A DNA stretch of 64,000 nucleotides from Eledone cirrhosa (GCA_964016885.1 OZ024759.1:19530001-19594000); one strand, 5' to 3'; positions 6,058-64,000 are shown, counted from the stretch's first letter. Program-made: numbers and translations. The notes: a model not told the origin generated them from the sequence alone.

Positions 6058-8738
6058 GAGTCACTCCAGGTAGGGCAGCTACTTCTCCGCATTGAGAGAT
6101 CACAGCTCCGATACTATGGACATGTGGTTAGAATGTCTCAGGAAATAATCACTGGAGATGTTTGTCGCTCAGAGATTAGAGAGTCACTCCAGGTAGGGCA
6201 GCTACTTCTCCGAATTGAGAGATCACAGCTCCGATACTATGGACATGTGGTTAGAATGTCTCAGGAAATAATCGCTGGACAGATTTGTCGCTCAGAGATC
6301 AGAGAGTCACTCCAGGTAGGGCAGTTGCTTCTTCGAATTGAGAGATCACAGCTCCGATACTATGGGAATGTGGTTAGAATGTCTCAGGAAATAATCGCTG
6401 GACAGATTTGTCGCTCAGAGATCAGAGAGTCACTCCAGGTAGGGCAGTTGCTTCTTCGAATTGAGAGATCACAGCTCCGATACTATGGGAATGTGGTTAG
6501 AATGTCTCAGGAAATAATCGCTGGACAGATTTGTCGCTCAGAGATCAGAGAGTCACTCCAGGTAGGGCAGCTACTTCTCCGAATTGAGAGATCACAGCTC
6601 CGATACTATGGACATGTGGTTAGAATGTCTCAGGAAATAATCGCTGGACAGATTTGTCGCTCAGAGATCAGAGAGTCACTCCAGGTAGGGCAGCTACTTC
6701 TCCGAATTGAGAGATCACAGCTCCGATACTATGGACATGTGGTTAGAATGTCTCAGGAAATAATCGCTGGACAGATTTGTCGCTCAGAGATCAGAGAGTC
6801 ACTCCAGGTAGAGCAGCTGCTTCTTCGAATTGAGAGATCACAGCTCCGATACTATGGACATGTGGTTAGAATGTCTCAGGAAATAATCGCTGGACAGATT
6901 TGTCGCTCAGAGATCAGAGAGTCACTCCAGGTAGAGCAGCTACTTCTCCGAATTGAGAGATCACAGCTCCGATACTATGGGAATGTGGTTAGAATGTCTC
7001 AGGAAATAATCGCTGGACAGATTTGTCGCTCAGAGATCAGAGAGTCACTCCAGGTAGGGCAGCTACTTCTCCGCATTGAGAGATCACAGCTCCGATACTA
7101 TGGGAATGTGGTTAGAATGTCTCAGGAAATAATCACTGGAGATATTTGTAGCTCTGAGATTAGAGAGTCACTCCAGGTAGGGCAGCTACTTCTCCGAGTT
7201 GGGAGATCACAGCTCCGATACTATGGGAATGTGGTTAGAATATCTCAGGAAAGAATCACTGGAGATATTTGTCGCTCAGAGATTAGAGAGTCACTCCAGG
7301 TAGGGCAGCTACTTCTCCGCATTGAGAGATCACAGCTCCGATACTATGGGAATGTGGTTAGAATGTCTCAGGAAATAATCACTGGAGATATTTGTAGCTC
7401 TGAGATTAGAGAGTCACTCCAGGTAGGGCAGCTGCTTCTTCGAATTGAGAGATCACAGCTCCGATACTATGGGAATGTGGTTAGAATGTCTCAGGAAATA
7501 ATCGCTGGACAGATTTGTCGCTCAGAGATCAGAGAGTCACTCCAGGTAGGGCAGCTGCTTCTTCGAATTGAGAGATCACAGCTCCGATACTATGGAAATG
7601 TGCTTAGAATGTCTCAGGAAATAATCGCTGGACAGATTTGTCGCTCAGAGATCAGAGAGTCACTCCAGGTAGGGCAGCTGCTTCTTCGAATTGAGAGATC
7701 ACAGCTCCGATACTATGGGAATGTGGTTAGAATGTCTCAGGAAATAATCGCTGGACAGATTTGTCGCTCAGAGATCAGAGAGTCACTCCAGGTAGAGCAG
7801 CTGCTTCTCAGAATTGAGAGATCACAGCTCCGATACTATGGGAATGTGGTTAGAATGTCTCAGGAAATAATCACTGGAGATATTTGTCGCTCAGAGATTA
7901 GAGAGTCACTCCAGGTAGGGCAGCTACTTCTCCGAATTGAGAGATCACAGCTCCGATACTATGGGAATGTGGTTAGAATGTCTCAGGAAATAATCACTGG
8001 AGATATTTGTCGCTCAGAGATTAGAGAGTCACTCCAGGTAGGGCAGCTACTTCTCCGAATTGAGAGATCACAGCTCCGATACTATGGGAATGTGGTTAGA
8101 ATGTCTCAGGAAATAATCACTGGAGATATTTGTCGCTCAGAGATTAGAGAGTCACTCCAGGTAGGGCAGCTACTTCTCCGAATTGAGAGATCACAGCTCC
8201 GATACTATGGGAATGTGGTTAGAATATCTCAGGAAAGAATCGCTGGAGATATTTGTCGCTCAGAGATCAGAGAGTCACTCCAGGTAGGGCAGCTGCTTCT
8301 CCGAATTGAGAGATCACAGCTCCGATACTATGGGAATGTGGTTAGAATGTCTCAGGAAATAATCGCTGGACAGATTTGTCGCTCAGAGATCAGAGAGTCA
8401 CTCCAGGTAGGGCAGCTGCTTCTTCGAATTGAGAGATCACAGCTCCGATACTATGGGAATGTGGTTAGAATGTCTCAGGAAATAATCGCTGGACAGATTT
8501 GTCGCTCAGAGATTAGAGAGTCACTCCAGGTAGGGCAGCTGCTTCTCCGAATTGAGAGATCACAGCTCCGATACTATGGGAATGTGGTTAGAATGTCTCA
8601 GGAAATAATCGCTGGACAGATTTGTCGCTCAGAGATCAGAGAGTCACTCCAGGTAGGGCAGCTGCTTCTTCGAATTGAGAGATCACAGCTCCGATACTAT
8701 GGACATGTGGTTAGAATGTCTCAGGAAATAATCGCTGG
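6058..8738 (+). repeat. 123-bp tandem array, about 22 copies, derived from an RTE LINE RT C-terminal segment and open as a 906-aa ORF (6124-8844)
   Basis: GAGTCACTCC recurs at 6058, 6181, 6304 ... 8641, exactly 21 x 123 bp apart. The unit encodes RSEIRESLQVGQLLLRIERSQLRYYGHVVRMSQEIIAGQIC (41 aa) with the RTE LRxxGHVxRM motif. Confidence 0.95.
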
Positions 8739-8940
8739 ATGGATTTTATGGACAAAACCAACAGACAGGAGACCCAGGGGTAGACCCTTAGCAAGATGGT
8801 TGGATAACATCCATGAACTTGGCTGGTCACGCTTAGGGATCTAGCAGGATCGGTTGGAAACGGTTGCTACTGACAGGACCTGCTGGAAGGAGTGTTTGAG
8901 TGTCCCCATGACCCTGTTAGGACTAAGTGGGCTAAGAAGA
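8739..8940 (+). mobile_element. Single-copy RTE LINE 3' end continuing from the array
   Basis: WTKPTDRRPRGRPLARWLDNI...*...DRTCWKECL contains the RTE RPRGRP..W.D motif. Related copies lie at about 14690-15480, 42720-42890 and 44640-44975 on the minus strand. Confidence 0.85.
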
Positions 8941-30233: not shown

Positions 30234-31600
30234 GCAACAACAACAACAACAACAACAACAACGGCAGCAGCAATAACTGCAACAGAAGAAGCAGCAGGAG
30301 CAACAGCAGCTACAACAGCAACACCACTACCACCAACCACAACACCACCACCACCAACCACAACAACAGCAACACCACCAACAACACCATCACTACCAAC
30401 AACAGCAACACCACTACCACCAACCACAACAACAGCAACACCACCAACAACACCATCACTACCAACAACAGCAACACCACTACCACCAACCACAACAACA
30501 GCAACACCAACCACAACAACAGCAACAGCAACACCACCACCACCACCACCACCACCAACCACAACACCACCACCACCAACCACAACACCACCACCACCAA
30601 CCACAACAACACCACCACCAACCACAACACCACCACCACCAACCACAACACCACCACCACCAACCACAACAACAGCAACACCACCACCAACACCACCACC
30701 ACCAACCACAACACCACCACCACCAACCACAACAACAGCAACACCACCACCAACACCACCACCACCAACCACAACACCACCACCAACAACCACAACAACA
30801 GCAACACCACCACCAACACCATCACCACCAACCACAACACCACCACCACAACCACCACAACAGCAACACCACCACCAACACCACCACCACCAACCACAAC
30901 ACCACCACCAACAACCACCACAACAGCAACACCACCACCAACACCACCACCACCAGCCACAACACCACCACCACCAACCACCACAACAGCAACACCACCA
31001 CCAACACCACCACCACCAACCACAACACCACCACCAACAACCACAACAACAGCAACACCACCACCAACACCATCACCACCAACCACAACACCACCACCAC
31101 CAACCACCACAACAGCAACACCACCACCAACACCACCACCACCAACCACAACACCACCACCAACAACCACAACAACAGCAACACCACCACCAACACCATC
31201 ACTACCAACAACAGCAACACCACCAACCACAACACCACCACCACTACCATCAACACCAGCAACACCACCACCAACAACAGCAACACCACCACCACCACCA
31301 CCATCAACACCAGCAACACCACCACCAACAACATCAACACCACCACCACCATCACCAACAACAACAACAGCAATACCACCAACAACAGCAATACCACCAA
31401 CAACAGCAATACCACCAACAGCAACACCACCACCGACCACAACACCACCACCACCACCACCACCACCACCAGCAACAACACCACTACCACCACCAGCAAC
31501 AACACCACCACCACTACCACCACCAACAACAACACCACCACCACTACCACCACCAACAACAACAACACCACCAACAACAACAACAACAGAAGCAGCAGCT
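30234..31600. repeat. Compound (ACC)/(AAC)/(AGC) trinucleotide minisatellite with higher-order blocks
   Basis: The + strand is almost only A and C. Blocks such as ACCACAACAACAGCAACACCACCACCAACACC recur. Confidence 0.9.
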
Positions 31601-48805: not shown

Positions 48806-49084
48806 TGATATGTGCAGTCTCTCTCTCAATTCGTTTATGCTTTGCCGTTCGCATTCGTCATTTTAAAGTTTGCTTTCCCTGCTAGCAAGAGTTGGACGGG
48901 TCCATGCAGACTAAGTCAGTACTAAAGCAGAACCACTCATCTTCCAAGCAGGCCAGGGATATGTGCCTCGCTTATGTATGGCCTCATGTTTCACTGAGGA
49001 CTAAGGAGAGGTTTTCATGTCTTTGACTCTACTGAAGGTCCTCTCAACCCTTTATATGGGAATATATGCTTTTATATTTAATTT

Positions 49085-49420
49085 CATTTGTACCGTTTCC
49101 TCTCACCCCCTTTTGTCTATGTCTCTCCACCACTCCCCTACACACCCTTGGAACTCTCTTCCCACACACTTTTCGCCTGAAGAAGGGCTTATGCCCGAAA
49201 CGTCGTTCCCCACCACCACCCCACTCTCAAGAGCGTGAAACTAATAAACCCTTGTTCGTACTGCCTCTCTGTTTTGTTCCCGTTCAATTTTTTACTATAT
49301 ATATTCGTTTTTTTTACTAGACTACCTTTTATTGTCTGTGTCTATCTATACTTTGTGATCCTGTCTCTATTTTTGTACTCCTGAAGAAAGGCCAGAGCCC
49401 GACACGTCAGACTTTTCAAT
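49085..49420 (+). mobile_element. Penelope-like repeat fragments with two hammerhead-like cores (49177-49204 and 49381-49408)
   Basis: CTGAAGAAGGGCTTATGCCCGAAACGTC and CTGAAGAAAGGCCAGAGCCCGACACGTC. Confidence 0.5.
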
Positions 49421-49607
49421 ATAAAATGTAAAAGTAAGACATTTTGTACCTGTTTTGTCTTTTTCTTGAATTATATATATTTATGTACGTCGTCATCATT
49501 TAACAGCCATTTTCCCTGTCTGCATGGGTTGGATGGGTTGTCATGTTATGAGACGGATCAGGTGCAGAGACCACGTCTTGTTCGTGTGGATCTGTATATA
49601 TACAATT

Positions 49608-49885
49608 ATCATCATCATTTTGTCCGTTTTTCCCTGCTTGCAAGGCTGGGACAGGCCCTCTTCAGCTCAGCATCTCATTTCTCACGGTCCGTCGTCATCT
49701 CCTGTGAGCTGCAACGATCTGATGTCAGCTCTCACCCCCATGTTTTCTGTGGTCTTCCTCTACTGCATTTTCCTTCCACCGGGATTACTTGTCACTTCTT
49801 CACCCAGCGGTCATCGTCCATGTGCATCACATGGCCATACCAACACAGTCTTCTCTCCTGCACACTACAGTCTATTCCTCTTATA
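49608..49885 (-). mobile_element. RTE LINE 3' fragment
   Basis: CATCACATGGCCATACCAACACAGTCTTCTCTCCTG reads QERRLCWYGHVM on the minus strand; a (CAT)n tail is present. Confidence 0.75.
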
Positions 49886-50757
49886 TACAGTTATATACAA
49901 TATATATTCACACTACAGTCTATTGCTCCTATATACACAGTTATATACACTATATATTTACACTACAGTCTATTCCTCCTATATACACAGTTATATACAA
50001 TATATATTCACACTACAGTCTATTGCTCCTATATACACAGTTATATACACTATATATTTACACTACAGTCTATTCCTCCTATATACACAGTTATATACAA
50101 TATATATTCACACTACAGTATATTCCTCCTATATACACAGTTATATACACTATATATTTACACTACAGTCTATTCCTCCTATATACACAGTTATATACAA
50201 TATATATTCACACTACAGTCTATTGCTCCTATATACACAGTTATATACAATATATATTCACACTACAGTCTATTCCTCCTATATACACAGTTATATACAC
50301 TATATATTTACACTACAGTCTATTCCTCCTATATACACAGTTATATACAATATATATTCACACTACAGTCTATTGCTTCTATATACACAGTTATATACAA
50401 TATATATTCACACTACAGTCTATTGCTCCTATATACACAGTTATATACAATATATATTCACACTACAGTATATTCCTCCTATATACACAGTTATATACAA
50501 TATATATTCACACTACAGTATATTCCTCCTATATACACAGTTATATACAATATATATTCACACTACAGTATATTCCTCCTATATACACAGTTATATACAA
50601 TATATATTCACACTACAGTATATTCCTCCTATATACACAGTTATATACAATATATATTCACACTACAGTATATTCCTCCTATATACACAGTTATATACAA
50701 TATATATTCACACTACAGTCTATTGCTCCTATATACACAGTTATATACAATATATAT
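49862..50757. repeat. 50-bp minisatellite, about 18 copies, seeded at the RTE truncation point
   Basis: Unit CACTACAGTCTATTCCTCCTATATACACAGTTATATACAATATATATTCA. Confidence 0.95.
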
Positions 50758-51136
50758 GAAACAAAGAAATACAAAAGTACAAAATTTTATTTCATTCAAT
50801 CTTAGAAATGACGATAAAAAGTGTATTGGACGTAAGTCCACCAGGAAAAAGCAACACGGAGAGAGGAGAGTGGAATAAAAACAACAACAAACAAATGAAA
50901 CAAACAAATGAAAAATTGAGTGCGAGTGGCATGGGGGGGGGGGGGGGGTTGATGGAGAGTCCAGATGTATCATTACAAGGGGTGACAGAGGAAAGGATGG
51001 AGTGTCTGGGATGGATAAGGTGGAGTTCATTTTGAGGGTATGGGGTGTTGTGTGTGTGAGATCTTGTTTAAGTATCTATGGTCGTGTGTGTGTGCTGGGA
51101 AATGTAGTCAGATTGGGCTGGGGGGAGGGTATCCTC

Positions 51137-52816
51137 TCCGAGTGAAGTCTAGCCCTGCCTTGAGCCTGGGGCTCAAGATCATGGGTTCAACTGCACAGAT
51201 GGTAGAGAAAGGGAGTGTTTGATATCAGTGGAGTGGGATGTAGTGAAGTCAGGGTTGGAGTAAGGTAAGAGTTAGTGGGTTTAAAGGATGAGGAGGAGGA
51301 GGAGGGGTCATGAGAGTAAGGAGTTGAGCTGCTCCAGGGTGAGAAAGGAGTTGGTATGCTCCAGGGTGAGAAAGGTGTTGAGCTGCTCCAGGGTGAGAAA
51401 GGAGTTGATCTGCTACCAGATGAGAAAGGGGTTTAGCTGCTACCAGGTTGAGAAAGGGGTTGAGCTGCTACCAGGTTGAGAAGGGGGTTGAGAAAGGGGT
51501 TTAGCTGCTACCAGGTTGAGAAAGGTGTTGAGCTGCTACTAAGTTGAGAAAGGGGTTGAGCTGCTACCAGGTTGAGAAAGGGGTTGAGAAAGGGGTTGGC
51601 CTGCTCCTGGGTCAGAAAGGTGATGCCAATACAGTCGTTAACGGTTGTATAGCTTGGCGATGGAGCCAGTGGAGTGGGCAAAAATTTGGATCACAAAGAT
51701 TTGGGTCACAACATAAACAACAAATAGGTTGTCATTGTTGCGGCCCAATCTTGTGGCCATCCCGGAAAATCACCCAAGAAAGAGAAAAAACAGTTTAGGG
51801 TGAGGATCATCTCGGCAAGGTAAATGAAGGTGAAAGTAGTGGGGTGGGATATTGATAAACAAAAATATCTTGCTCGTCCTCGAGTTCCTTTCTCTTCTCC
51901 ATCTGTCTCTCTCCTTCTCTGAGGTTGATTTAGCTGGTGTCAGGCCTGGGGACCGTTATTAAGGGTTACAGAATTTGTTTGTAGTATTCCCTTCAAATTC
52001 GTTTCGTTCAAATTCTGCTGAGGTCAACTTTCACTTTCATCCTTTTGGGATAATAAAATATCTGTCCAATACAGGAGTCACTTTTTCATCTGTCCATTTT
52101 TCTCCCTCTCCTTTTCCAGGGTTAAATCAGTTATTGTCAATACCTGGAGAGGTTTGTGATGGCATCAGAATCTGTTTGTAGCATTCCGTTCAAATCCATT
52201 TTGTTCAAATTCTGCCAAGGTCGACTTTTGTCTTCACATTTATTTTTGTGGGATTGATAAATAATACCAATCCAGTACTGGTGTTCTTTTTCAACCATCT
52301 CTATTGTTTTCTCTGTTGCTTCTCCTCCATGGTTAAATTGGCTGTTGTCAGACATGGAGAGGGTTGGGCTGTCAGGTTTTAAATGCCCAAGTTGCAACGT
52401 TTGTTATGACAGTGTACATAACGACTCCAACAAAAGCGCTGGCCTCATTTCAACATCTTTACAGATGCGATTGTTTTGTAAAAAGAAATTAAAACATATT
52501 TGTAAAAACAATTAAAACATAGATTACATACTGAACTCAGAACATTTCTCCCACTCTGGCGTTTCGTGTGAGATTTAGCACCTTTCACTTTAATATTGAT
52601 GTAATGTAGCTTCAGTCGGCACAGATCTTTAAAACATGAAGCTGTAGGTGTGGCATTACATCACAGTTACTCATTGGTGTCTCAGGGTAACCTCTTGTTG
52701 AGTACCCTAACCTTAGTAGACATTGTGGTTCTTTGTGCAGTTAAATTTTTCAATTTTTCAACACATGACCATTATGATGTCATAAGCTAAAAATTCAAAA
52801 CTGGCTTATGTGTGTG

Positions 52817-52830
<14 letters not shown>
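51137..52830 (+). repeat. Left arm of a large inverted duplication
   Basis: Reverse complement of about 58620-61480 and 57350-57465. ORFs 51975-52181 (+) and 59160-59366 (-) differ by one residue. Confidence 0.93.
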
Positions 52831-52861
<31 letters not shown>

Positions 52862-53041
52862 ATGTATATATATATATATATATGTGTGTGTGTATATATA
52901 TGTGTGTATATATATATGTGTATGTTTTTACAAAACAATCGCATCTATATGTGTATATATATATGCGTGTGTGTGTGTGTATATATATATATGCGTGTGT
53001 GTGTGTATATATATATGTGTGTGTGTGTGTATATGTATATG

Positions 53042-53210
53042 TGAAGGCGCATGGCTTAGTGGTTAGAGCATTGGGCTTGCAATCAAAAGGTTGAGAGTTC
53101 AATTCTTGGACTGGGTGATGTGTTGTTTCCTTGAGCAAGACCATTTATTTCACGTTGCTCCAGTTTACTCACCTGTAGAAATGAGATGATAGGACTGGGG
53201 TCCCTATTAT
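53042..53210 (+). mobile_element. SINE family A, 5' part
   Basis: GAAGGCGCATGGCTTAGTGGTTAGAGC head. Confidence 0.8.
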
Positions 53211-53339
53211 TAAATTACCCAAGACACCTCGAACAAGATATACCTTGGAGGAGGCCAGCTAAACCTGCATAGGTGTGAGCTGTCACGCACGCACGCACGC
53301 ACGTGTGTGTGTATAAATATATACATCTGGCTGCCCCTG

Positions 53340-54080
53340 GGGACTTCTATACTTGGTGAAGACTAAAATCCTAATAAGTAGAAAGGAAAACAAGGCCCAG
53401 ATCCCTTCAGGGTAATGGCATTGCCCAGTTTGCAGGAAGAGAGTGGGTAGTAATTCAATCCTATGTCCCAAATACAAATTATGGGTATACAAATGATGTA
53501 GAGGGATCTCAGGTAGGCTAGCAAATAAAGTAGGTTTTATATGTTGCTGATGCTTTGTTTCCCTTTCTACTTACGAGAATGTTAAGCTATGCTTCCTGTG
53601 GGTATTATAGTAGAACTCTGTGGCAGGGGCCAGAAGTACAGGTTGACCACACAAAAATCCCCCTTTTGCTTGATCATTTTTTCACGTCAAAATGCATTTT
53701 TTCGCTGGACAGTTATATCATCATCATCATCATCATCATCGGGTTTAGCGTCCGTGTTCCACGCTTGCATGGGTTTGGACGGGGGTTTTCCCACTTGGGG
53801 CAAGAATGGTTGTCTTGCTCGCATAGTCTGGCGGGTTTTCTACAGCTGGATGCCCTTCCTAACACCAACCACATTTACAGTGTGGGGCTGGGAGGTTTTT
53901 ACCGTGTTGCCTACACGGCCACATTACAGCGTGGACTGTCTGGCGGGTTTTGTACAGCTGGATGCCCTTCCTAACACCAACCACATTTACAGTGTGGGGC
54001 TGGGAGGTTTTTACCGTGTTGCCTACATGGCCACATTACAGCGTGGACTGTGTGTTTTTTTTGTCATGACACCTACACGA
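53340..54080. mobile_element. RTE fragments: Cys-rich segment (+, 53340-53550) and tail (-, 53717-54080) with an internal duplication of about 112 bp
   Basis: KTKILISRKENK..WHCPVCRKRVG; (CAT)n tail; TGGCGGGTTTT...CAGCGTGGACTG occurs twice. Confidence 0.7.
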
Positions 54081-54142
54081 TCTCATTTGTTTCGGCCTAG
54101 ATGTTGTGGGACCAACATAACTTTACATTGAAAGGGGCGGTA

Positions 54143-54569
54143 TCTATCTATATATTACTAAAACTCTGTGATTGATTGCTTGCTTGTCTGTAATGTAATA
54201 CAGCCAAAAGGGCACATAATGGGAAAATACTTTGAAAGGAAGTTGACCCTGAAATGCGAATACAAATGGAATAAAACAAGTTTCGCGTAAATCGGTGCAC
54301 GGGTTCCTGAGATACAGGGTTTTTCCGGGTACCTTCATAAACAGAGAGATAGTGGTTATGATAGAGGGAGAGAAGACAGAGAAGGAGAATGGAAGAGAGA
54401 GCTGTTGGTGGTGTTGTGTTTATATATATACATACATACACGTATATATATGGGCCTTCCAGTTTCATTTCATATTATATACATGTCTGTGTATACTTTA
54501 ATTATTTAGAAATTATTTTTAAGTGAACATGATTTAAAAAAAATATTTTGAGGTGAACGAGTGGTCTAG
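54143..54569 (+). mobile_element. Probable non-autonomous Helitron
   Basis: A|TCTATCTATATATTACTAAAAC 5' end and GAGTGGTCTAG|T 3' end fit an A-T target with TC...CTAG termini. The subterminal hairpin is not clear. Confidence 0.5.
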
Positions 54570-54928
54570 TATCATTTGATAGTTCTGGATGTAAACTTTC
54601 CTCCAATGTACTTTTGGTCAAAATCCAACACTTACATAGCATGCCAGATCCTCTCTGTCACCATTGTATTTTCACCCATTTACAACTTTTGTCCCATTTT
54701 CGTTTTTTTACTGTTGAATGGTAACGCTAGTTGTAGTTCAATGTGCTGGAGCATAACTCAATTTGTGTTGAAAATGATACAGCCATTGGAGTACTTTTTC
54801 AGGGGAAGGGAAAAGTTGATTAAATCGATGCCAGTACATAACTGGGACTTGTTTTATAAAGGCAAAGTTAACCTCGGCAGGATTTTCAAAAATAATGTAA
54901 ACAATATACAAAAAGATGAGAAAATACA

Positions 54929-56190
54929 TTAACCCTTCAGCTTTTAAACAGGCCGTATCCAGCCAGAATTCTTTTGCCTTTTTCTGTTAAAACTGGCCAT
55001 AACTGCTTGCTTGTGCAAACGTTAAGGTATTGTTCTCGAAATAAATAATATCAAAATCTCGTAGATTCGATATTATGCAAGATAATTCTGTGAGGTAAAG
55101 AATGCTAAAGGGTTAAACCAGCCATATCTGGCCAGAATTATCTCACCTCTTTCTGTTCAAACCGGCTGTAACTGGCCACTCATACTTATGTTAAGGCATT
55201 GTTCTCGAAATAAATAATATCAAAATCTCGTAGATTCGATATTATGCAAGATAATTCTGTGAGGTAAAGAATGCTAAAGGGTTAAACCAGCCATATCTGG
55301 CCAGAATTATCTCACCTCTTTCTGTTCAAACCGGCTGTAACTGGCCACTCATACTTATGTTAAGGCATTGTTCTCGAAATAAATAATATCAAAATCTCGT
55401 AGATTCGATATTATGCAAGATAATTCTGTGAGGTAAAGAATGCTAAAGGGTTAAACCAGCCATATCTGGCCAGAATTATCTCACCTCTTTCTGTTCAAAC
55501 CGGCTGTAACTGGCCACTCATACTTATGTTAAGGTATTGTTCTCGAAATAAATAATATTAATATCTCATAGATTGAATATTATGTGAGGTAAAGGATTTA
55601 CTGTGAAAATACAATAGTATATATAATGTAAATGCTAAAGGGTTAAATCGACTGGATCCGGTCAGAACTATTTCACCTTTTTCTGTTCAAACCGGTCGTA
55701 ACCGGCTGCTCATATTGATATTAAGGTATTGTTCTCAAAATAAATACTATCAAAATCTGGTAGATTCGAAATTATGTGAAATAAAGCATTTACTGTGAAA
55801 ATACAATAGTAAATATAGAGTAATCATCATCATCATCATCATCATTTTACGTCCACTTTTCCCTGCTTGCAAGGGTGGGACGGGAACTGATTCTGGCTTG
55901 ATTTCTACAGCTGGATGCCCTTCCTAACACCAACCTCATTTACAGTGAGTGCTGGGTGCTTTTTCGCCGTGGCACCTCCACGACCACTTTGCAGTGGAAT
56001 GATATGGACCCCAGTCCCTATCATCTCATTTCTACAGCTGAGTAAACTGGAGCAATGTGAAATAAAGTGCCTTGCTCAAGGAAACAACACATCGCCCGGT
56101 CTGAGAATTGAACTCACAACCTTTCGATTGCAAGGCCAATGCTCTAACCACCAAGCCATGTGCCTCCTAATGTAAATGCTAAAGGGTTAA
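54929..56190. mobile_element. Tandem array (169-bp period) of the piggyBac-like MITE, last copy interrupted by a family A SINE (55824-56166, -)
   Basis: AATGCTAAAGGGTTAA at 55101, 55270, 55439, 55631 and 56175. A single left end TTAACCCTTCAGC at 54929. Confidence 0.85.
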
Positions 56191-56644
56191 GAAAATATTG
56201 GTTTCCGATTTAGACACAAAGTCAACTTTTTTTGTCATAAGGGTGTGTACCCAGTGTGCAGTACCGGATTTAGGACAAATGAGGCCTTGTGCTAGTTAAG
56301 TTGTAAGGCCCCAAACATTTTAAAAATTAATCATGAAAAATTTTGGGCGCTGGAAGATGGGATCCGCCTTGGTCAATGGGGTCATCTACTTAAATGCACC
56401 TTAGCACAATGGTAAATTCAGTGCAGTCAATGTATTACTGGTACTTTATTTTATCAATCCCCTAAAGGTGAAAGGTAAAGTTAACCTCAGTGGGATTTGA
56501 ACTCAGATAGTATAGAGACATAACTCTATGCCACAAAGCATGATGTCTGCTATATATATACATACACACACATGCTTACATACATACACACTTATAAATA
56601 TATACACATATATTCTAGTTTTAAATTTTTAGCTTATGACATCA

Positions 56645-56740
56645 TATATATATGTATATATATATGTATTATATATATATATATATATATGTGTATTATA
56701 TATATATATATGTATTATATATATATATATGTATTATATG

Positions 56741-56787
<47 letters not shown>

Positions 56788-57089
56788 GTATTATATATAT
56801 ATATATATATATGTATTATATATATATATATATATATGTATTATATATATATGTATATATGTATATATATATATATATATATGTATTGTATATATATATA
56901 TATGTATTGTATATATATATATATGTATTATATATATATATATATGTATATATGTATATATATATATATATATGTATTGTATATATATATATATGTATTG
57001 TATATATATATATATGTATTGTATATATATATATATGTATTATATATATATATATATGTATATATGTATATATATATATATATGTATTG

Positions 57090-57120
<31 letters not shown>

Positions 57121-57126
57121 GTATTG

Positions 57127-57157
<31 letters not shown>

Positions 57158-57231
57158 GTATTGTATATATATATATGTATATATATATATATGTATTGTA
57201 TATATATATATGTATATATATATATGTATTG

Positions 57232-57287
<56 letters not shown>

Positions 57288-57300
57288 TATATATATACAC
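56645..57300. repeat. (TA)/ATGTATT compound microsatellite
   Basis: Direct inspection. Confidence 0.95.
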
Positions 57301-57699
57301 ACACACGCATATGTAGATACATACAAACATATATATATACACACACGCATATGTACAAACATACATATATACACACATATGCTAGTTTTGAATTCTTTGC
57401 TTATGACATCATTTATGACATCATAATGCCATGAGTTGAAAAAATAAAAAATCTACCTGTACAGATTGTGTCATTTCACAGCGTCTCAGCAACGGTGAAA
57501 GTTCCTCAAAAGCTCTTTAGGAAAATATTTCTTTACAGCTTAAGGAAATTCATTGCATAACAGCCTAGTAAAGGTTTTATTTCTGAACTTCAGGAAAAAT
57601 CCATCATTTGAAACAGCAGCTAAGTGAAAAGTTTTTGATAACAACCCAGAGTAAGTTGATTTTATAACCCTCTGGGTGGTTATTTTAGTACAGTTCAGT

Positions 57700-58435
57700 G
57701 AAAGTTGTTTTATTACTGCAGCTCGAAGTTTTTTTCTGATAACACCACCCCATTGAAAAGTCCATCTTTAACATCTGATAACATCTCAGTGGAAGGTTTT
57801 TGTAACTGCAGCTCAGTAGAAGGTTTTTTCTGATAACACCACCCCATTGAAAAGTCCATCTTTAACATCTGATAAACATCTCAGTGGAAGGTTTTTGTAA
57901 CTGCAGCTCAGTGGAAGTTTTTTTCTGATACACCACCCTATTGAAAAGTCCATCTTTAACATCTGATAAACATCTCAGTGGAAGGTTTTTGTAACTGCAG
58001 CTCAGTGGAAGTTTTTTTCTGATACACCACCCCATTGAAAAGTCCATCTTTAACATCTGATAAACATCTCAGTGGAAGGTTTTTGTAACTGCAGCTCAGT
58101 GGAAGTTTTTTTCTGATACACCACCCCATTGAAAAGTCCATCTTTAACATCTGATAACATCTCAGTGGAAGGTTTTTGATGAAAGCTCTGAAAGTTGTTT
58201 TATAACTACAGCTAAGTGAAAGCTATTTTATAACTACAGATCAGTGGAAGTTTTTTTCTGATACCACCTCAAGATAACTACAGATCAGTGTAAGTTTTTT
58301 TCTGATACCACCTCAGGATAACTACAGCTAAGTGAAAGTTATTTTATAACTAGTTCTAATTTTAGAACAGATCTGAAAGTTTTTTTCTGATAACACTACC
58401 TCAGGAAAAGTCATCTTTAAAATCTGATAACAGTG
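57700..58435. repeat. About 94-bp tandem repeat, about 5 near-identical copies plus degenerate flanking copies from about 57480
   Basis: ACTGCAGCTCAGTGGAAG...CCCATTGAAAAGTCCATCTTTAACATCTGATAAACATCTCAGTGGAAGG. The duplicated ORFs at 57862 and 57956 are 94 bp apart. Confidence 0.9.
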
Positions 58436-58443
58436 AAAATCAA

Positions 58444-58656
58444 ATGGCCAACTTTGATGACATTGAAGAGCTAGAGATTGGTGAGTGTATTGAAGTTGAA
58501 CTGAGGGATGGATTAAAGTCTATTACGATGATTAGAGCACCGACTCCCACTTTTATGGAACGTCTCCAAATGGCCGTGGTAAAAAAGAAGAAGAAACTTC
58601 AATACTACTTTACTCGCTTTACCACACGGTCTACAAAGGTGAGGAGGAGGAATTGA
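58444..58656 (+). CDS. Candidate small ORF or first coding exon, unknown protein (70 aa, or 65 codons if spliced at 58638)
   Basis: AAATCAAATGG start context, non-repetitive protein-like composition (acidic N-half, KKKKK basic stretch), and a phase-0 donor-like AAG|GTGAGG at 58638/58639. No family recognised. Confidence 0.4.
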   Translation: MANFDDIEELEIGECIEVELRDGLKSITMIRAPTPTFMERLQMAVVKKKKKLQYYFTRFTTRSTKVRRRN

Positions 58657-61480
58657 GTTACACTACCTGTGTAACTGATGTAATGCCACACATACAGCTT
58701 CATGTTTTAAAGATCTGTGCCGACTGAAGCTACATTACATCAATATTAAAGTGAAAGGTGCTAAATCTCACACGAAACACCAGAATGGGGCTGAGTTCAG
58801 TATGTAATCTGTTTTAATTGTTTTTACAAATGTTTTAATTTCCTTTTACAAAACAATTGCATCTATAAAGATGTTGAAATGAGGCCAGCGCTTTTGTTGG
58901 AGTCGTATGTACACTGTCATAACAAACGTTGCAACTTGGGCATTTAAAACCTGAGCCCAACCCTCTCCATGTCTGACAACAACCAATTTAACCATGGAGG
59001 AGAAGCAACAGAGAAAACAATAGAGATGGTTGAAAAAGAACACCAGTACTGGATTGGTATTATATTTATCAATCCCACGAAAATAAATGTGAAGACAAAA
59101 GTCGACCTTGGCAGAATTTGAACAAAATGGATTTGAACGGAATGGATTTGAACGGAATGCTACAAACAGATTCTGATGCCCTCACAAACCTCTCCAGGTA
59201 TTGACAATAACTGATTTAACCCTGGAAAAGGAGAGGGAGAAAAATGGACAGATGAAAAAGTGACTCCTGTATTGGACAGATATTTTATTATCCCAAAAGG
59301 ATGAAAGTGAAAGTTGACCTCAGCAGAATTTGAACGAAACGAATTTGAAGGGAATACTACAAACAAATTCTGTAACCCTTAACAGTCCCCAGGCCTGACA
59401 CCAGCTAAATGTACCTCAGAGAAGGAGAGAGACAGATGGAGAAGAGAAAGGAACTCGAGGACGAGCAAGATATTTTTGTTTATCAATATCCCACCCCACT
59501 ACCTTCACCTTCATTTACCTTGCCGAGATGATCCTCACCCTAAACTATTTTTTCTCTTTCTTGGGTGATTTTCCGGGATGGCCACAAGATTGGGCCGCAA
59601 CAATGACAACCTATTTGTTGTTTATGTTGTGATCCAAATCTTTGATCTAAATTTTTGCCCACTCCACTGGCTCCATCGCCAAGCTATACAACCGTTAACG
59701 ACTGTATTGGCATCACCTTTCTGACCCAGGAGCAGGCCAACCCCTTTCTCAACCTAGTAGCAGCTAAACCCCTTTCGGGTTGAGAAAGGGGTTTAAACCT
59801 ACCCTTTCGGGTTGAGAAAGGGGTTTAGCTGCTACCAACCTGGTAGCAGCTTTCTCAACCCCCTTCTCAACCTGGTAGCAGCTAAACCCCTTTCTCAACC
59901 GGTTTTTGAGAAAGGGGTTTAAACCTACCCTTTCGGGTTGAGAAAGGGGTTTAGCTGCTACCAACCTGGTAGCAGCTTTCTCAACCCCCTTCTCAACCTG
60001 GTAGCAGCTAAACCCCTTTCTCAACCGGTTTTTGAGAAAGGGGTTTAAACCTACCCTTTCGGGTTGAGAAAGGGGTTTAGCTGCTACCAACCTGGTAGCA
60101 GCTTTCTCAACCCCCTTCTCAACCTGGTAGCAGCTAAACCCCTTTCTCAACCGGTTTTTGAGAAAGGGGTTTAAACCTACCCTTTCGGGTTGCTGCTACC
60201 AACCTGGTAGCAGCTTTCTCAACCCCGTTCTCAACCTGGTAGCAGCTAAACCCCTTTCTCAACCGGTTTTTGAGAAAGGGGTTTAAACCTACCCTTTCGG
60301 GTTGAGAAAGGGGTTTAGCTGCTACCAACCTGGTAGCAGCTTTCTCAACCCCCTTCTCAACCTGGTAGCAGCTAAACCCCTTTCTCAACCGGTTTTTGAG
60401 AAAGGGGTTTAAACCTACCCTTTCGGGTTGAGAAAGGGGTTTAGCTGCTACCAACCTGGTAGCAGCTTTCTCAACCCCCTTCTCAACCTGGTAGCAGCTA
60501 AACCCCTTTCTCAACCGGTTTTTGAGAAAGGGGTTTAAACCTACCCTTTCGGGTTGAGAAAGGGGTTTAGCTGCTACCAACCTGGTAGCAGCTTTCTCAA
60601 CCCCCTTCTCAACCTGGTAGCAGCTTTCTCAACCCCCTTCTCAACCTGGTAGCAGCTAAACCCCTTTCTCAACCCTCTTCTCAACCTGGTAGCAGCTAAA
60701 CCCCTTTCTCAACCCCTTCTCAACCTGGTAGCAGCTAAACCCCTTTCTCAACCCCCTTCTCAACCTGGTAGCAGCTAAACCCCTTTTCAACCCCTTCTCA
60801 ACCTGGTAGCAGCTTAACCCCTTTTTCAACCTGGTAGCAGCTAAACCCCTTTCTCAACTTAGTAGCAGCTAAACCCCTTTCTCAACCCCCTTCTCAACCT
60901 GGTAGCAGCTAAACCCCTCCCCTTTTTCAACCCCTTTCGCAACCTGGTAGCAGCTCATCCTCTTTTCTCAACCTCTTTCTCAACCTGATAGCTCAACCCC
61001 ATTACTCAACCTCTTTCTCAACCTGGTGGTAGCAACTCCTTACTCTCATGACCCCTCCTCCTTCAAACCCACTAACTCTTACTCCAACCCTGACTTCACT
61101 ACATCCCACTCCACTGATACCACACAATCCCTCTCCTACTATCCCTTTTTCTACCGTCTACTCTCGGACTAACTCTTTCTCTACTCTCGGACTATCCCTT
61201 TCTCTACTCTCTGACTATCCCTTTCTCTACTCTCTGACTATCCCTTTCTCTACTCTCGTACTATCCCTTTCTCTACTCTCGGACTCGGACTAACTCTTTC
61301 TCTACTCTCGGACTATCCCTTTCTCTACTCTCTGACTATCCCTTTCTCTACTCTCGTACTATCCCTTTCTCTACTCTCGGACTATCCCTTTCTCTACTCT
61401 CACCCTGTCCCTTTCTCTACCGTCTGTGCAGTTGAACTCATGATCTTGAGCCCCAGGCTCAAGGCAGGGCTAGACTAATC
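58620..61480 (-). repeat. Right arm of the large inverted duplication, with expanded internal repeats
   Basis: Reverse-complement match to 51137-52730. Confidence 0.93.
59760..60600. repeat. 126-bp tandem repeat built from self-inverted subunits, about 6.5 copies
   Basis: CCGGTTTTTGAG recurs at 59899, 60025, etc. Each unit contains AAACCCCTTTCTCAA and its reverse complement, plus GCTGCTACCA-ACC-TGGTAGCAGC. Confidence 0.9.
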
Positions 61481-64000
61481 ACTCGGACTATCCCTTTCTC
61501 TACCGTCTGTGCAGTTGAACTCATGATCTTGAGCCCCAGGCTCAAGGCAGGGCTAGACTAATCACTCGGACTATCCCTTTCTCTACCGTCTGTGCAGTTG
61601 AACTCATGGTCTTGAGCCCCAGGCTCAAGGCAGGGCTAGACTAATCACTCGGACTATCCCTTTCTCTACCGTCTGTGCAGTTGAACTCATGATCTTGAGC
61701 CCCAGGCTCTAGGCAGGGCTAGACTAATCATTCGGACTGCCCCTTTCTCTACCCTGTCTCTTTCTCTACCGTATGTGCAGTTGAACTCATGATCTTGAGC
61801 CCCAGGCTCAAGGCAGGGCTAGACTAATCACTCGGACTTCTCTTTCTCTACCTTCTCTACCGTCTGTGCAGTTGGACTCATGATCTTGAGCCCCAGGCTC
61901 AAGGCAGGGCTAGACTAATCACTCGGACTATCTCTTTCTCTACCGTCTGTGCAGTTGAACTCATGATCTTGAGCCCCAGGCTCAAGGCAGGGCTAGACTA
62001 ATCACTCGGACTTCCCTTTCTCTACCGTCTGTGCAGTTGAACTCATGATCTTGAGCCCCAGGCTCAAGGCAGGGCTAGACTAATCACTCGGACTATCTCT
62101 TTCTCTACCGTCTGTGCAGTTGAACTCATGATCTTGAGCCCCAGGCTCAAGGCAGGGCTAGACTAATCACTCGGACTTCCCTTTCTCTACCTTCTCTACC
62201 GTCTATGCAGTTGAACTCATGATCTTGAGCCCCAGGCTCAAGGCAGGGCTAGACTAATCACTGACTATCTCTTTCTACTGTCTGCAGTTGAACTCATGAT
62301 CTTGAGCCCCGGGCTCAAGGCACTCTAGGCACTCTAGCCCTGCCTTGAGCCTGGGGCTGAAGATCATGAGTTCAACTGCACAGACGGTAGAGAAAGAGAT
62401 AGTCCGAGTGATTAGTCTAGCCCTGCCTTGAGCCCCTGGGGCTCAAGATCATGAGTTCAACTGCACAGACGGTAGAGAAAGGGATAGTCCGAGTGATTAG
62501 TCTAGCCCTGCCTTGCTGGCTCAAGGCAGGGCTAGACTAATCACTCGGACTATCCCTTTCTCTACCGTCTGTGCAGTTGAACTCATGAGCTAGACTAATC
62601 ACTCGGACTTCCCTTTCTCTACCTTCTCTACCGTCTGTGCAGTTGAAGCCCTGCCTTGAGCCCCTGGGGCTCAAGATCATGAGTTCAACTGCACAGACGG
62701 TAGAGAAAGAGATAGACCGAGTGATTGGTCTAGCCCTGCCTTGCAGGCTCAAGGCAGGGCTAGACTAATCACTCGGACTCTCTTTCTCTACCGTCTGTGC
62801 AGTTGGAACTCATGATCTTGAGCCCCAGGCTCAAGGCAGGGCTAGACTAATCACTCGGACTTCCCTTTCTCTACCTTCTCTACCGTCTGTGCAGTTGAAC
62901 TCATGATCTTGAGCCCCAGGCTCAAGGCAGGGCTAGACTAATCACTCGGACTATCTCTTTCTCTACCGTCTGTGCAGTTGGAACTCATGATCTTGAGCCC
63001 CAGGCTCAAGGCAGGGCTAGACTAATCACTCGGACTTCCCTTTCTCTACCTTCTCTACCGTCTGTGCAGTTGAAGCCCTGCCTTGAGCCCCTGGGGCTCA
63101 AGATCATGAGTTCAACTGCACAGACGGTAGAGAAAGAGATAGACCGAGTGATTGGTCTAGCCCTGCCTTGCAGGCTCAAGGCAGGGCTAGACTAATCACT
63201 CGGACTCTCTTTCTCTACCGTCTGTGCAGTTGGAACTCATGATCTTGAGCCCCAGGCTCAAGGCAGGGCTAGACTAATCACTCGGACTTCCCTTTCTCTA
63301 CCTTCTCTACCGTCTGTGCAGTTGAACTCATGATCTTGAGCCCCAGGCTCAAGGCAGGGCTAGACTAATCACTCGGACTATCTCTTTCTCTACCGTCTGT
63401 GCAGTTGGAACTCATGATCTTGAGCCCCAGGCTCAAGGCAGGGCTAGACTAATCACTCGGACTAACTCTTTCTCTACCGTCTGTGCAGTTGAACTCATGA
63501 TCTTGAGCCCCAGGCTCAAGGCAGGGCTAGACTAATCACTCGGACTTCCCTTTCTCTACCTTCTCTACCGTCTGTGCAGTTGAACTCATGATCTTGAGCC
63601 CCAGGCTCAAGGCAGGGCTAGACTAATCACTCGGACTATCTCTTTCTCTACCGTCTGTGCAGTTTTGATTCCCAGGCTCAAGGCACTCTAGCCCTGCCTT
63701 GAGCCTGGGGCTGAAGATCATGAGTTCAACTGCACAGACGGTAGAGAAAGAGATAGTCCGAGTGATTAGTCTAGCCCTGCCTTGAGCCCCTGGGGCTGAA
63801 GATCATGAGTTCAACTGCACAGACGGTAGAGAAAGAGATAGTCCGAGTGATTGGTCTAGCCCTGCCTTGCAGGCTCAAGGCAGGGCTAGACTAATCACTC
63901 GGACTATCTCTTTCTCTACCGTCTGTGCAGTTGAACTCATGATCTTGAGCCCCAGGCTCAAGGCAGGGCTAGACTAATCACTCGGACTTCCCTTTCTCTA
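61130..64000. repeat. 23-bp subrepeat tract (61130-61420), then an 83-bp satellite with internal inversions running off the window end
   Basis: CCGTCTGTGCAGTTGAAC at 61420, 61503, 61586, etc. The unit contains the hairpin CTTGAGCC-CCA-GGCTCAAG. Reversed blocks lie at about 62334-62515, 62647-62743, 63074-63171 and 63687-63870. Confidence 0.93.

What the first reader, a model, noticed from the sequence alone, without database searches (positions are those of the whole stretch)
51137..64000. Foldback-like giant inverted duplication with modular, internally repetitive arms
Seen in sequence: about 1.7 kb at 51137-52830 is a high-identity reverse complement of 58620-61480 plus 57350-57465. The mirror ORFs 51975-52181 (+) and 59160-59366 (-) have symmetric coordinates and differ by one amino acid. 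Each arm is modular: an outer 83-bp unit, an array of ~28-bp GGTTGAGAAAGGGGTTTAGCTGCTACCA subrepeats, and about 1 kb of unique sequence. The roughly 4.5-kb spacer holds only SINEs, MITEs, a probable Helitron and microsatellites. Established: long TIRs made of internal tandem repeats define Foldback-type elements (Drosophila FB, Galileo, some Mutator-like elements). Inference: this is either an undescribed non-autonomous foldback transposon or a recent inverted segmental or gene duplication.
Basis: partly seen in the sequence, partly recalled or inferred. Interest (0 to 1): 0.75.

Follow-up and report, generated by a model that had tools for sequence, protein, structure and literature searches.

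The report
Inverted gene duplicate leaving RNA-editing fossils
The two mirror-image arms are copies of a small, likely protein-coding gene rather than the ends of a jumping element; they likely fold the RNA into a double strand, and a copy on another chromosome carries A-to-G changes in exactly that stretch, likely RNA edits written back into DNA.

Summary
The inverted repeat is real but is not a foldback transposon. Only a 1.1-kb core is near-identical (1035/1052). The arms stay alike at 77-93% out to 49494 and to about 67390, beyond the window, with ragged ends and no target duplication. Related copies on two other chromosomes have no inverted partner within 50 kb. The 'spacer' hides an intact 70-codon ORF (58444-58656), deleted from the left arm. 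It belongs to a family of 17 loci, 7 with an open frame, and has no database homologue. Outside the core the left arm is the outgroup to the right arm and the two remote copies; inside, it groups with the right arm. That is the signature of recent gene conversion in an old inverted duplicate. The C22 copy carries A>G at 42 of 251 adenines in the core against 19 of 429 elsewhere (P 1e-7), with G depleted 5' of the changed base as in ADAR editing. The C13 copy shows a weaker skew and ends in poly(A). Most likely RNA from the inverted pair was edited and retroposed. Expression, protein function and the inverted arrangement in single molecules are untested.

The parts
49494..49910 (-). LINE fragment beyond the left copy's 3' end, shared with the right copy (67042-67390, outside the window) and with C22
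   Evidence: 73% local match; 239/281 to the right arm, and the left arm lacks a deletion that the right arm and C22 share
49861..50757 (-). 50-bp tandem array (18 copies) grown from the junction between gene end and LINE piece; one copy in the right arm
50709..51136 (-). left copy, distal block with the AATAAA site (motif match at 50782); not homogenised
   Evidence: 82% for 50709-50822; 121/154
51137..51214 (-). single 83-bp unit of the left copy
51299..51620 (-). short 28-bp subrepeat array of the left copy, all units in one direction
51590..52673 (-). left core: inferred gene-conversion tract, 98.4% identical to the right core; inferred pairing partner for editing
52682..52730 (-). remnant of the last codons of the ORF; the rest of the ORF and the upstream array are deleted from this copy
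52734..53040 (-). left copy 5' block: palindromic motif at 52774 beside a CA/TA microsatellite, the shared 5' boundary of the family
53041..56600 (.). true spacer: fragments of common repeats, a 169-bp tandem array and a young 350-bp insertion about 96% like other copies
56614..57424 (+). right copy 5' end: motif copy at 56634, 630-bp TA-rich microsatellite, doubled motif at 57401 and 57413
57425..58443 (+). upstream region with tandem units (94 bp x 4.8 at 57725-58178), related to the 25-mer arrays of the other loci; absent from the left copy
58444..58656 (+). intact 70-codon ORF: acidic N-terminal half, basic C-terminal half predicted as one helix (37-64)
58668..59745 (+). right core (likely 3' UTR, with two decayed SINE-like pieces); the only block in which the C22 copy shows the A>G excess
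59738..61045 (+). expanded 28-bp array with local flips (22 forward, 6 reverse markers), built as 126-bp higher-order units
61131..61420 (+). 23-bp array (11 copies)
61405..64000 (+). 83-bp array with local flips (41 forward, 8 reverse markers); continues to about 65690; AATAAA site at about 66995; homology to C22 to 67835

Best explanation
The arms are two head-to-head copies of one member of a 17-locus family, likely a small single-exon gene, duplicated locally long ago, whose 3' cores were likely homogenised later by gene conversion and likely pair in RNA, so that ADAR-edited transcripts were likely retroposed to C22 and C13. Shown: inverted homology; ORF open in the right copy and deleted in the left; conflicting relationships inside and outside the core; sense-strand A>G excess confined to the core of C22; poly(A) at the end of C13. 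Inferred: conversion ran mainly right to left. A plus-strand transcript through the left core supplies the complementary strand, in cis across the 6-kb gap or in trans. ADAR edited the duplex, and a LINE reverse transcriptase copied the RNA in the germ line. The protein, with its acidic disordered N-half and basic amphipathic helix, most likely works as a small binding peptide in germ cells, on chromatin, a membrane or a partner protein; this step is weak.
For: Conversion: left-right identity is 1035/1052 in the core, but 47/61 (5' block), 121/154 (distal) and 239/281 (LINE piece) outside; Fisher P 2e-30. In the core 32 sites group left+right against C22+C13. In the distal and 5' blocks 19 and 8 sites are private to the left arm, with 1 left+right site each. 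Gene: an ATG-to-stop frame with the same C-terminal motif stands at 7 of 17 loci. A at -3 and G at +4 occur in 6 of 7. The three nearest ORF-bearing copies align with in-frame gaps only, while 15/21, 9/17 and 17/21 core indels are not multiples of 3. Simulated neutral survival is 0.02-0.24 per copy. dN/dS is 0.16-0.48 in the 31-codon C-terminal block among these three. AATAAA is followed by a T-rich stretch. Editing: right arm to C22, A>G at 42/251 A in the core against 19/429 in five pooled non-core blocks (P 1.3e-7), T>C 7/204 against 15/442. Polarised with left, right and C13: A>G 18, T>C 1. G stands 5' of 3/40 changed against 62/201 unchanged adenines (P 0.0016); PMC2873906 gives 7.85% against 30.3% for ADAR (passages). 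The C22 ORF, which has no partner in the left arm, has 1 A>G among 21 private changes. None of 12 distant copies is skewed (lowest P 0.18). Retroposition: C13 ends in an A-run about 15 nt past the AATAAA position; several copies start inside the upstream array, and C3a has an inverted 5' piece. PMC5625713 (passages): octopus hyper-edits heavily, mostly on neighbouring inverted repeats.
Against: C22, the clearly skewed copy, has no poly(A) and no target duplication, and runs about 840 bp past the AATAAA site. C13 has no target duplication either. The C13 skew is weak: 29 against 9, P 0.02, not significant over 16 copies, with no 5'-G depletion. Both remote copies start at the TA microsatellite, so no copy preserves the read-through transcript. 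A 6-kb loop is long for cis pairing (recalled). The arms were homogenised after C22 split off (1.6% against about 7%), so how well they paired at the time is not known. C22 and C13 share 5 derived non-A>G changes in 146 ORF sites, which fits a shared ancestor as well as two independent retrocopies. Among the four distant open ORFs dN/dS is 0.73-1.34, and 4 open of 13 may be neutral survival. The A>G sites of C22 were not checked in reads. No homologue was found in any protein collection searched.
Confidence: 0.58

Rival explanations
1. Non-autonomous foldback (Mutator- or Galileo-like) DNA transposon: the arms are its terminal inverted repeats, cut and pasted as a pair.
For: Long inverted arms with internal tandem repeats of unequal number, as described for Tetris (PMC4079207 passages). 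A second inverted pair of family members exists, on C1, 38 kb apart.
Against: 2 of 2 close relatives are unpaired in 50 kb. The 83-bp unit occurs in arrays only at C20, C13 and C22. No target duplication. The outer ends are ragged and less alike than the inner core. The C1 pair faces the opposite way and shares flank beyond the motif.
Confidence: 0.05
2. The whole unit is a low-copy selfish non-autonomous retroelement with its own small ORF and internal promoter; the arms are two neighbouring insertions or a local duplicate, later converted. The editing part of the model is unchanged.
For: A common 5' boundary at a CA/TA microsatellite in 12 loci that keep the motif (7 exact pattern matches). 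A star-like tree of distant copies, most with broken frames. A tandem array ahead of the ORF.
Against: Only 17 loci were found in 3.0 Gb (a lower bound). Each of the three nearest copies gained its own ORF changes (14, 12 and 9 of 146 sites) without a stop or frameshift, which points to selection on each genomic copy. No match to a mobile-element domain in Pfam.
Confidence: 0.2
3. Inverted duplicate with gene conversion as above, but C22 and C13 arose by DNA-level duplication, and the A>G excess comes from another strand-biased mutation process or from cDNA-templated conversion of the core alone.
For: C22 carries sequence beyond the poly(A) site and has no tail or target duplication. The skew is limited to the same block that was converted between the arms.
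Against: Transcription-linked asymmetry should affect the whole transcribed unit, yet non-core blocks are balanced (A>G 19, T>C 15, G>A 14, C>T 21). The 5'-G depletion fits ADAR. C13 has a tail.
Confidence: 0.12
4. Assembly artefact: two haplotypes, or a chimeric fold-back read, placed as an inverted pair.
For: No listed contig spans both arms. Right-only contigs have depth 2-4.2 and left-only ones 3.9-7.4 (depth is not a copy number).
Against: The arms differ by 15-23% outside the core and by a 1.1-kb deletion, far more than alleles or a chimeric read would. Both arm-specific sequences occur exactly in read contigs.
Confidence: 0.05

Closest known systems
Foldback transposons such as Tetris (PMC4079207, passages read) and Galileo (search listing only)
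   Same: Long inverted arms with internal tandem repeats of variable number around a middle part.
   Different: No target duplication, no common termini, relatives unpaired, and the arms are copies of an ORF-bearing unit facing head to head.
Palindrome arms kept alike by arm-to-arm gene conversion (mammalian sex-chromosome palindromes, recalled; PMC13688818 seen as search listing only)
   Same: Inverted paralogues with a homogenised tract near the spacer.
   Different: The tract is only 1.1 kb, the flanks are 15-23% diverged, and one arm has lost its ORF.
ADAR hyper-editing of neighbouring inverted repeats (PMC5625713, PMC2873906; passages read)
   Same: Clustered one-strand A>G with G depleted upstream, on a long inverted duplex.
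   Different: Here the changes are read from genomic DNA of a remote copy, not from RNA; the duplex is a duplicated 3' region, not a pair of abundant SINEs.
Deaminase-edited retroelements fixed in genomes: APOBEC G>A in LTR elements (PMC4866542, PMC2873906; passages read); ADAR-type A>G in avian retroviruses (recalled, and named in earlier scan notes)
   Same: Edits made on an intermediate become heritable DNA after reverse transcription.
   Different: The edited copy is of a likely host gene with an open frame, the putative source duplex is still in place, and the edits stop where the partner arm is deleted.
Lineage-specific retrogene families evolving by birth and death (recalled)
   Same: Dispersed single-exon copies, many broken, one with poly(A), some 5'-truncated.
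   Different: No intron-bearing parent found; most copies keep a promoter-like 5' motif and sequence past the poly(A) signal.

Membership tests
Foldback transposon | long inverted arms with internal tandem repeats | tested here: met
Foldback transposon | dispersed copies with paired arms and shared outer termini | tested here: not met
   C22 and C13 unpaired in 50 kb, 2 of 2; ragged ends
Foldback transposon | 8-10-bp target-site duplication | tested here: not met
   best matches at two candidate pairs of ends were 8 bp of CAT microsatellite and 6 bp
Foldback transposon | a transposase-bearing partner that shares the termini | not tested
   no defined termini to search with; the 83-bp unit led only to C20, C13, C22 and one weak hit
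Inverted duplicate under gene conversion | tract of high identity with a discordant phylogeny | tested here: met
Inverted duplicate under gene conversion | arrangement seen in single molecules | not testable with these tools
   only short contigs and RAD reads were served
Protein-coding gene | frame kept under divergence | tested here: met
   3 of 3 ORF-bearing near copies and 7 of 17 loci open; in-frame gaps
Protein-coding gene | dN/dS below 1 | tested here: inconclusive
   0.16-0.48 in the C-terminal block of near copies, 0.73-1.34 over whole ORFs of distant copies; few sites
Protein-coding gene | transcribed and translated | not testable with these tools
   no RNA run was served
Retrocopy (C13, C22) | poly(A) at the cleavage site | tested here: inconclusive
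   present in C13, absent in C22
Retrocopy (C13, C22) | target-site duplication | tested here: not met
   none of 8 bp or more at either copy; both 5' ends lie in microsatellite
Fossil ADAR editing (C22) | one-strand, polarised A>G excess | tested here: met
Fossil ADAR editing (C22) | G depleted 5' of the site | tested here: met
   3/40 against 62/201 in C22; not met in C13, 4/21 against 60/204
Fossil ADAR editing (C22) | confined to a region that can form a long duplex | tested here: met
   core against non-core P 1.3e-7; the core is the block matched by the inverted arm
Fossil ADAR editing (C22) | same sites edited in present-day RNA | not testable with these tools
   no RNA run was served

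The most novel reading that the evidence does not exclude
A dead inverted copy of an orphan germ-line gene acts as a built-in antisense partner, renewed by gene conversion. It makes ADAR hyper-edit the live gene's 3' UTR, and the edited RNAs were written back into the genome as new intact genes on other chromosomes: heritable RNA editing of a host gene family, with the source duplex, the edit boundaries and the daughters all still readable.
Probability: 0.35. Interest if true: 0.75.

Novelty: new variant of a known kind. Interest (0 to 1): 0.55.

Why it matters
Cephalopods edit RNA more than almost any animal, and whether such edits feed back into the genome is an open question. Here the likely source duplex, the unedited parent and an edited daughter can all be compared. 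The fossil A>G positions predict which adenines should be edited in today's germ-line RNA, which one RNA-seq data set can test. The locus also exposes an unannotated small-protein family whose coding letters change several times faster than their flanks. It is a caution too: conversion can make an old gene duplicate look like a young foldback element.

Tried and rejected
Foldback transposon: rejected. Mirror ORFs as genes: rejected, frameshifted in C13 and C22. Protein homologues: none in Pfam (4 proteins, E up to 1), in the word-indexed search (6-sequence alignment, lengths 35-167), by exact look-up (0 of 6) or among 1.84 billion representatives. The Atlas gave no answer. AlphaFold gave one helix at mean pLDDT 60.5, pTM 0.33; a fold search was not run, since a single helix is uninformative. 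Rfam on 49000-64000: 43 matches, all below gathering score, hairpin or microsatellite look-alikes; no ribozyme. No RNA holder listed. RAD reads covered almost nothing of the arm. CpG decay does not explain the fast ORF: 8/72, 3/71 and 4/57 differences are of that type. The ORF as an internal exon was considered for a donor-like stretch in two copies and rejected, because it is not kept in the others and start and stop are. Ten paper searches were run. None listed a paper on this family, or on an ADAR-edited retrocopy traced to its source inverted duplicate. The library lacks most subscription journals and only listings were seen, so this is not proof of absence. Supplements were not read. Earlier scan notes held nothing near this place or like this sequence.

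Full report
Setting. The window is G000:C20:19530001-19594000 in a 3.0-Gb animal genome. I read it as an octopus from recalled repeat families and from earlier scan notes; no call named it. SINE and LINE labels below are recalled. Copies are named by contig; L and R are the left and right arms. Coordinates above 64000 continue the window into fetched DNA.

Observation. 51590-52691 matches 59746-58657 in reverse with 1055 matches, 18 mismatches and 46 gap columns. The modules exist but are unequal: 1 against 49 83-bp units and 4 against 28 markers of the 28-bp unit. Homology continues outward at 50709-50822 with 66965-67087 (82%) and 49494-49910 with 67042-67390 (73%). Contigs from one sample (three runs, one study, possibly the assembly's own source) match L-only and R-only sequence exactly; none spans both arms.

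Not a foldback. The core search gave 54 matches from 40 scored of 1039 candidates, so counts are lower bounds. The two close relatives, C22 and C13, have the same modules in the same order as R and no inverted partner in 50 kb. The 83-bp unit forms arrays only at C20, C13 and C22. Tetris-type foldbacks are defined by paired arms with 8-10-bp duplications (PMC4079207, passages).

What the arms carry. R holds an ATG-to-stop frame at 58444-58656 that L has lost; only its last codons remain at 52682-52730. DNA, protein and pattern searches gave 17 loci on 9 contigs. Seven have an open frame of 67-95 residues; in C3a a deletion alters the end. The rest are broken or truncated. All seven have a basic C-terminal half and an acidic-leaning N-terminal half and share an F-T-x-R-x-T motif. 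The model shows one helix at 37-64, with hydrophobic moments of 0.35-0.60. Twelve loci keep a palindromic motif just after a CA/TA microsatellite, and nine show an AATAAA-type 3' site. R, C22 and C13 differ by 26-34% in the ORF yet align with in-frame gaps only; simulated neutral survival is 0.02-0.24 per copy. Against this, the four distant open frames show dN/dS near 1. No homologue was found.

Why the core looks young. L and R share 1035/1052 in the core but 47/61, 81/87, 121/154 and 239/281 in the 5', linker, distal and LINE blocks. Outside the core L is the outgroup (19 and 8 private sites); inside, 32 sites join L and R against C22 and C13. L also keeps the unshortened LINE piece and a 5' motif like that of the distant copies. 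So L and R are old paralogues with a recent conversion tract, most simply copied from R to L. This is inference from the site patterns.

The editing fossil. Against R, C22 has A>G at 42 of 251 adenines in the core and 19 of 429 in five other blocks (P 1.3e-7), while T>C is 3.4% in both. With C13 as a further outgroup the count is 18 A>G to 1 T>C. With the other copies as outgroups it is 35 to 7 (16 of 17 loci aligned, C5b left out because it lacks the region). G precedes 3 of 40 changed and 62 of 201 unchanged adenines, close to the 7.85% and 30.3% given for ADAR in PMC2873906 (passages); PMC5625713 reports the same depletion in invertebrates and very high hyper-editing in octopus (passages). 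The excess is missing in the ORF and the 5' block, which L has deleted, and fades toward the outer end of the core. C13 is weaker: 23/237, no neighbour bias. It shares 8 sites with C22 where 2.6 are expected and ends in an A-run about 15 nt past the AATAAA position. None of the 12 distant copies, nor L or R, is skewed.

Mechanism. Step 1, shown: an inverted local pair exists in the assembly. Step 2, strongly inferred: conversion homogenised the core. Step 3, inferred: plus-strand RNA across L pairs with the R transcript, and ADAR edits the duplex. Step 4, inferred: a LINE reverse transcriptase copied such RNA in the germ line, stopping at or starting from the TA microsatellite, to give C13 and C22. 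Step 5, weak: the peptide is a germ-cell binding factor. Open problems: C22 has no tail or target duplication; the homogenisation seen today postdates C22; C22 and C13 may share an ancestor (5 non-A>G shared changes in 146 ORF sites).

Unexplained. The ORF changes much faster than its flanks, even at silent sites: 5/15, 7/17 and 6/19 fourfold sites differ, against 12-13% in the core. On the R branch alone it is 14/146 against 3/280. CpG decay does not account for it. Positive selection with multiple hits, or exchange of the ORF between paralogues, are the candidates.

Novelty. Each ingredient is known, and earlier scan notes report ADAR-type fossils in transposons of this genome (unchecked AI notes). 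What differs here is a likely host gene, and edits that stop at the edges of an identifiable inverted partner. Verdict: new variant of a known kind; interest 0.55.

Noticed in passing
window 59738-61045 and 61405-65690: The 28-bp and 83-bp arrays of the right arm contain locally flipped units (6 of 28 and 8 of 49), whereas the arrays at C22 and C13 run in one direction; the flips arose only in the copy that has an inverted neighbour.
   Followed up: partly
window 57403-58888: Right-arm-only contigs have about half the depth (2-4.2) of left-arm-only contigs (3.9-7.4) in one sample; the ORF-bearing arm may be heterozygous or present on one haplotype only. Depth is a weak measure here.
   Followed up: partly
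L047/L058 and L101/L085 (G000:C1:312422049 and 312461983): A second inverted pair of the same family, about 38 kb apart, facing tail to tail, about 85% alike; one frame open, one broken; no A>G skew.
   Followed up: partly
L046 (G000:C28:94236300-94239400) and L105 (G000:C5:48967279-48969630): The 25-bp unit upstream of the ORF has grown to arrays of about 3.1 kb and 2.3 kb, satellite seeds from a gene's 5' region; the copy at C3:129351682 has almost no array.
   Followed up: partly
L039-L040, L045-L046, L091 (G000:C28:92.97, 94.24 and 95.51 Mb): Three family members within 2.5 Mb; two share one frameshift and are nearly identical, the third is open.
   Followed up: partly
window 52930-52950: A 20-bp piece of the core sits inverted inside the left microsatellite, a sign of template switching.
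   Followed up: no
window 6058-8746: A 123-bp x 22 tandem array, 96% alike, that looks like an amplified LINE fragment.
   Followed up: no
window 30319-31588: A 1.27-kb CAC-rich array with a 21/63-bp period and extreme strand skew.
   Followed up: no
window 55821-56177; also 17245, 27261, 29223, 33575, 48462: A young 350-bp dispersed repeat, 95-98% alike, with at least six copies in the window, one inside the spacer.
   Followed up: no
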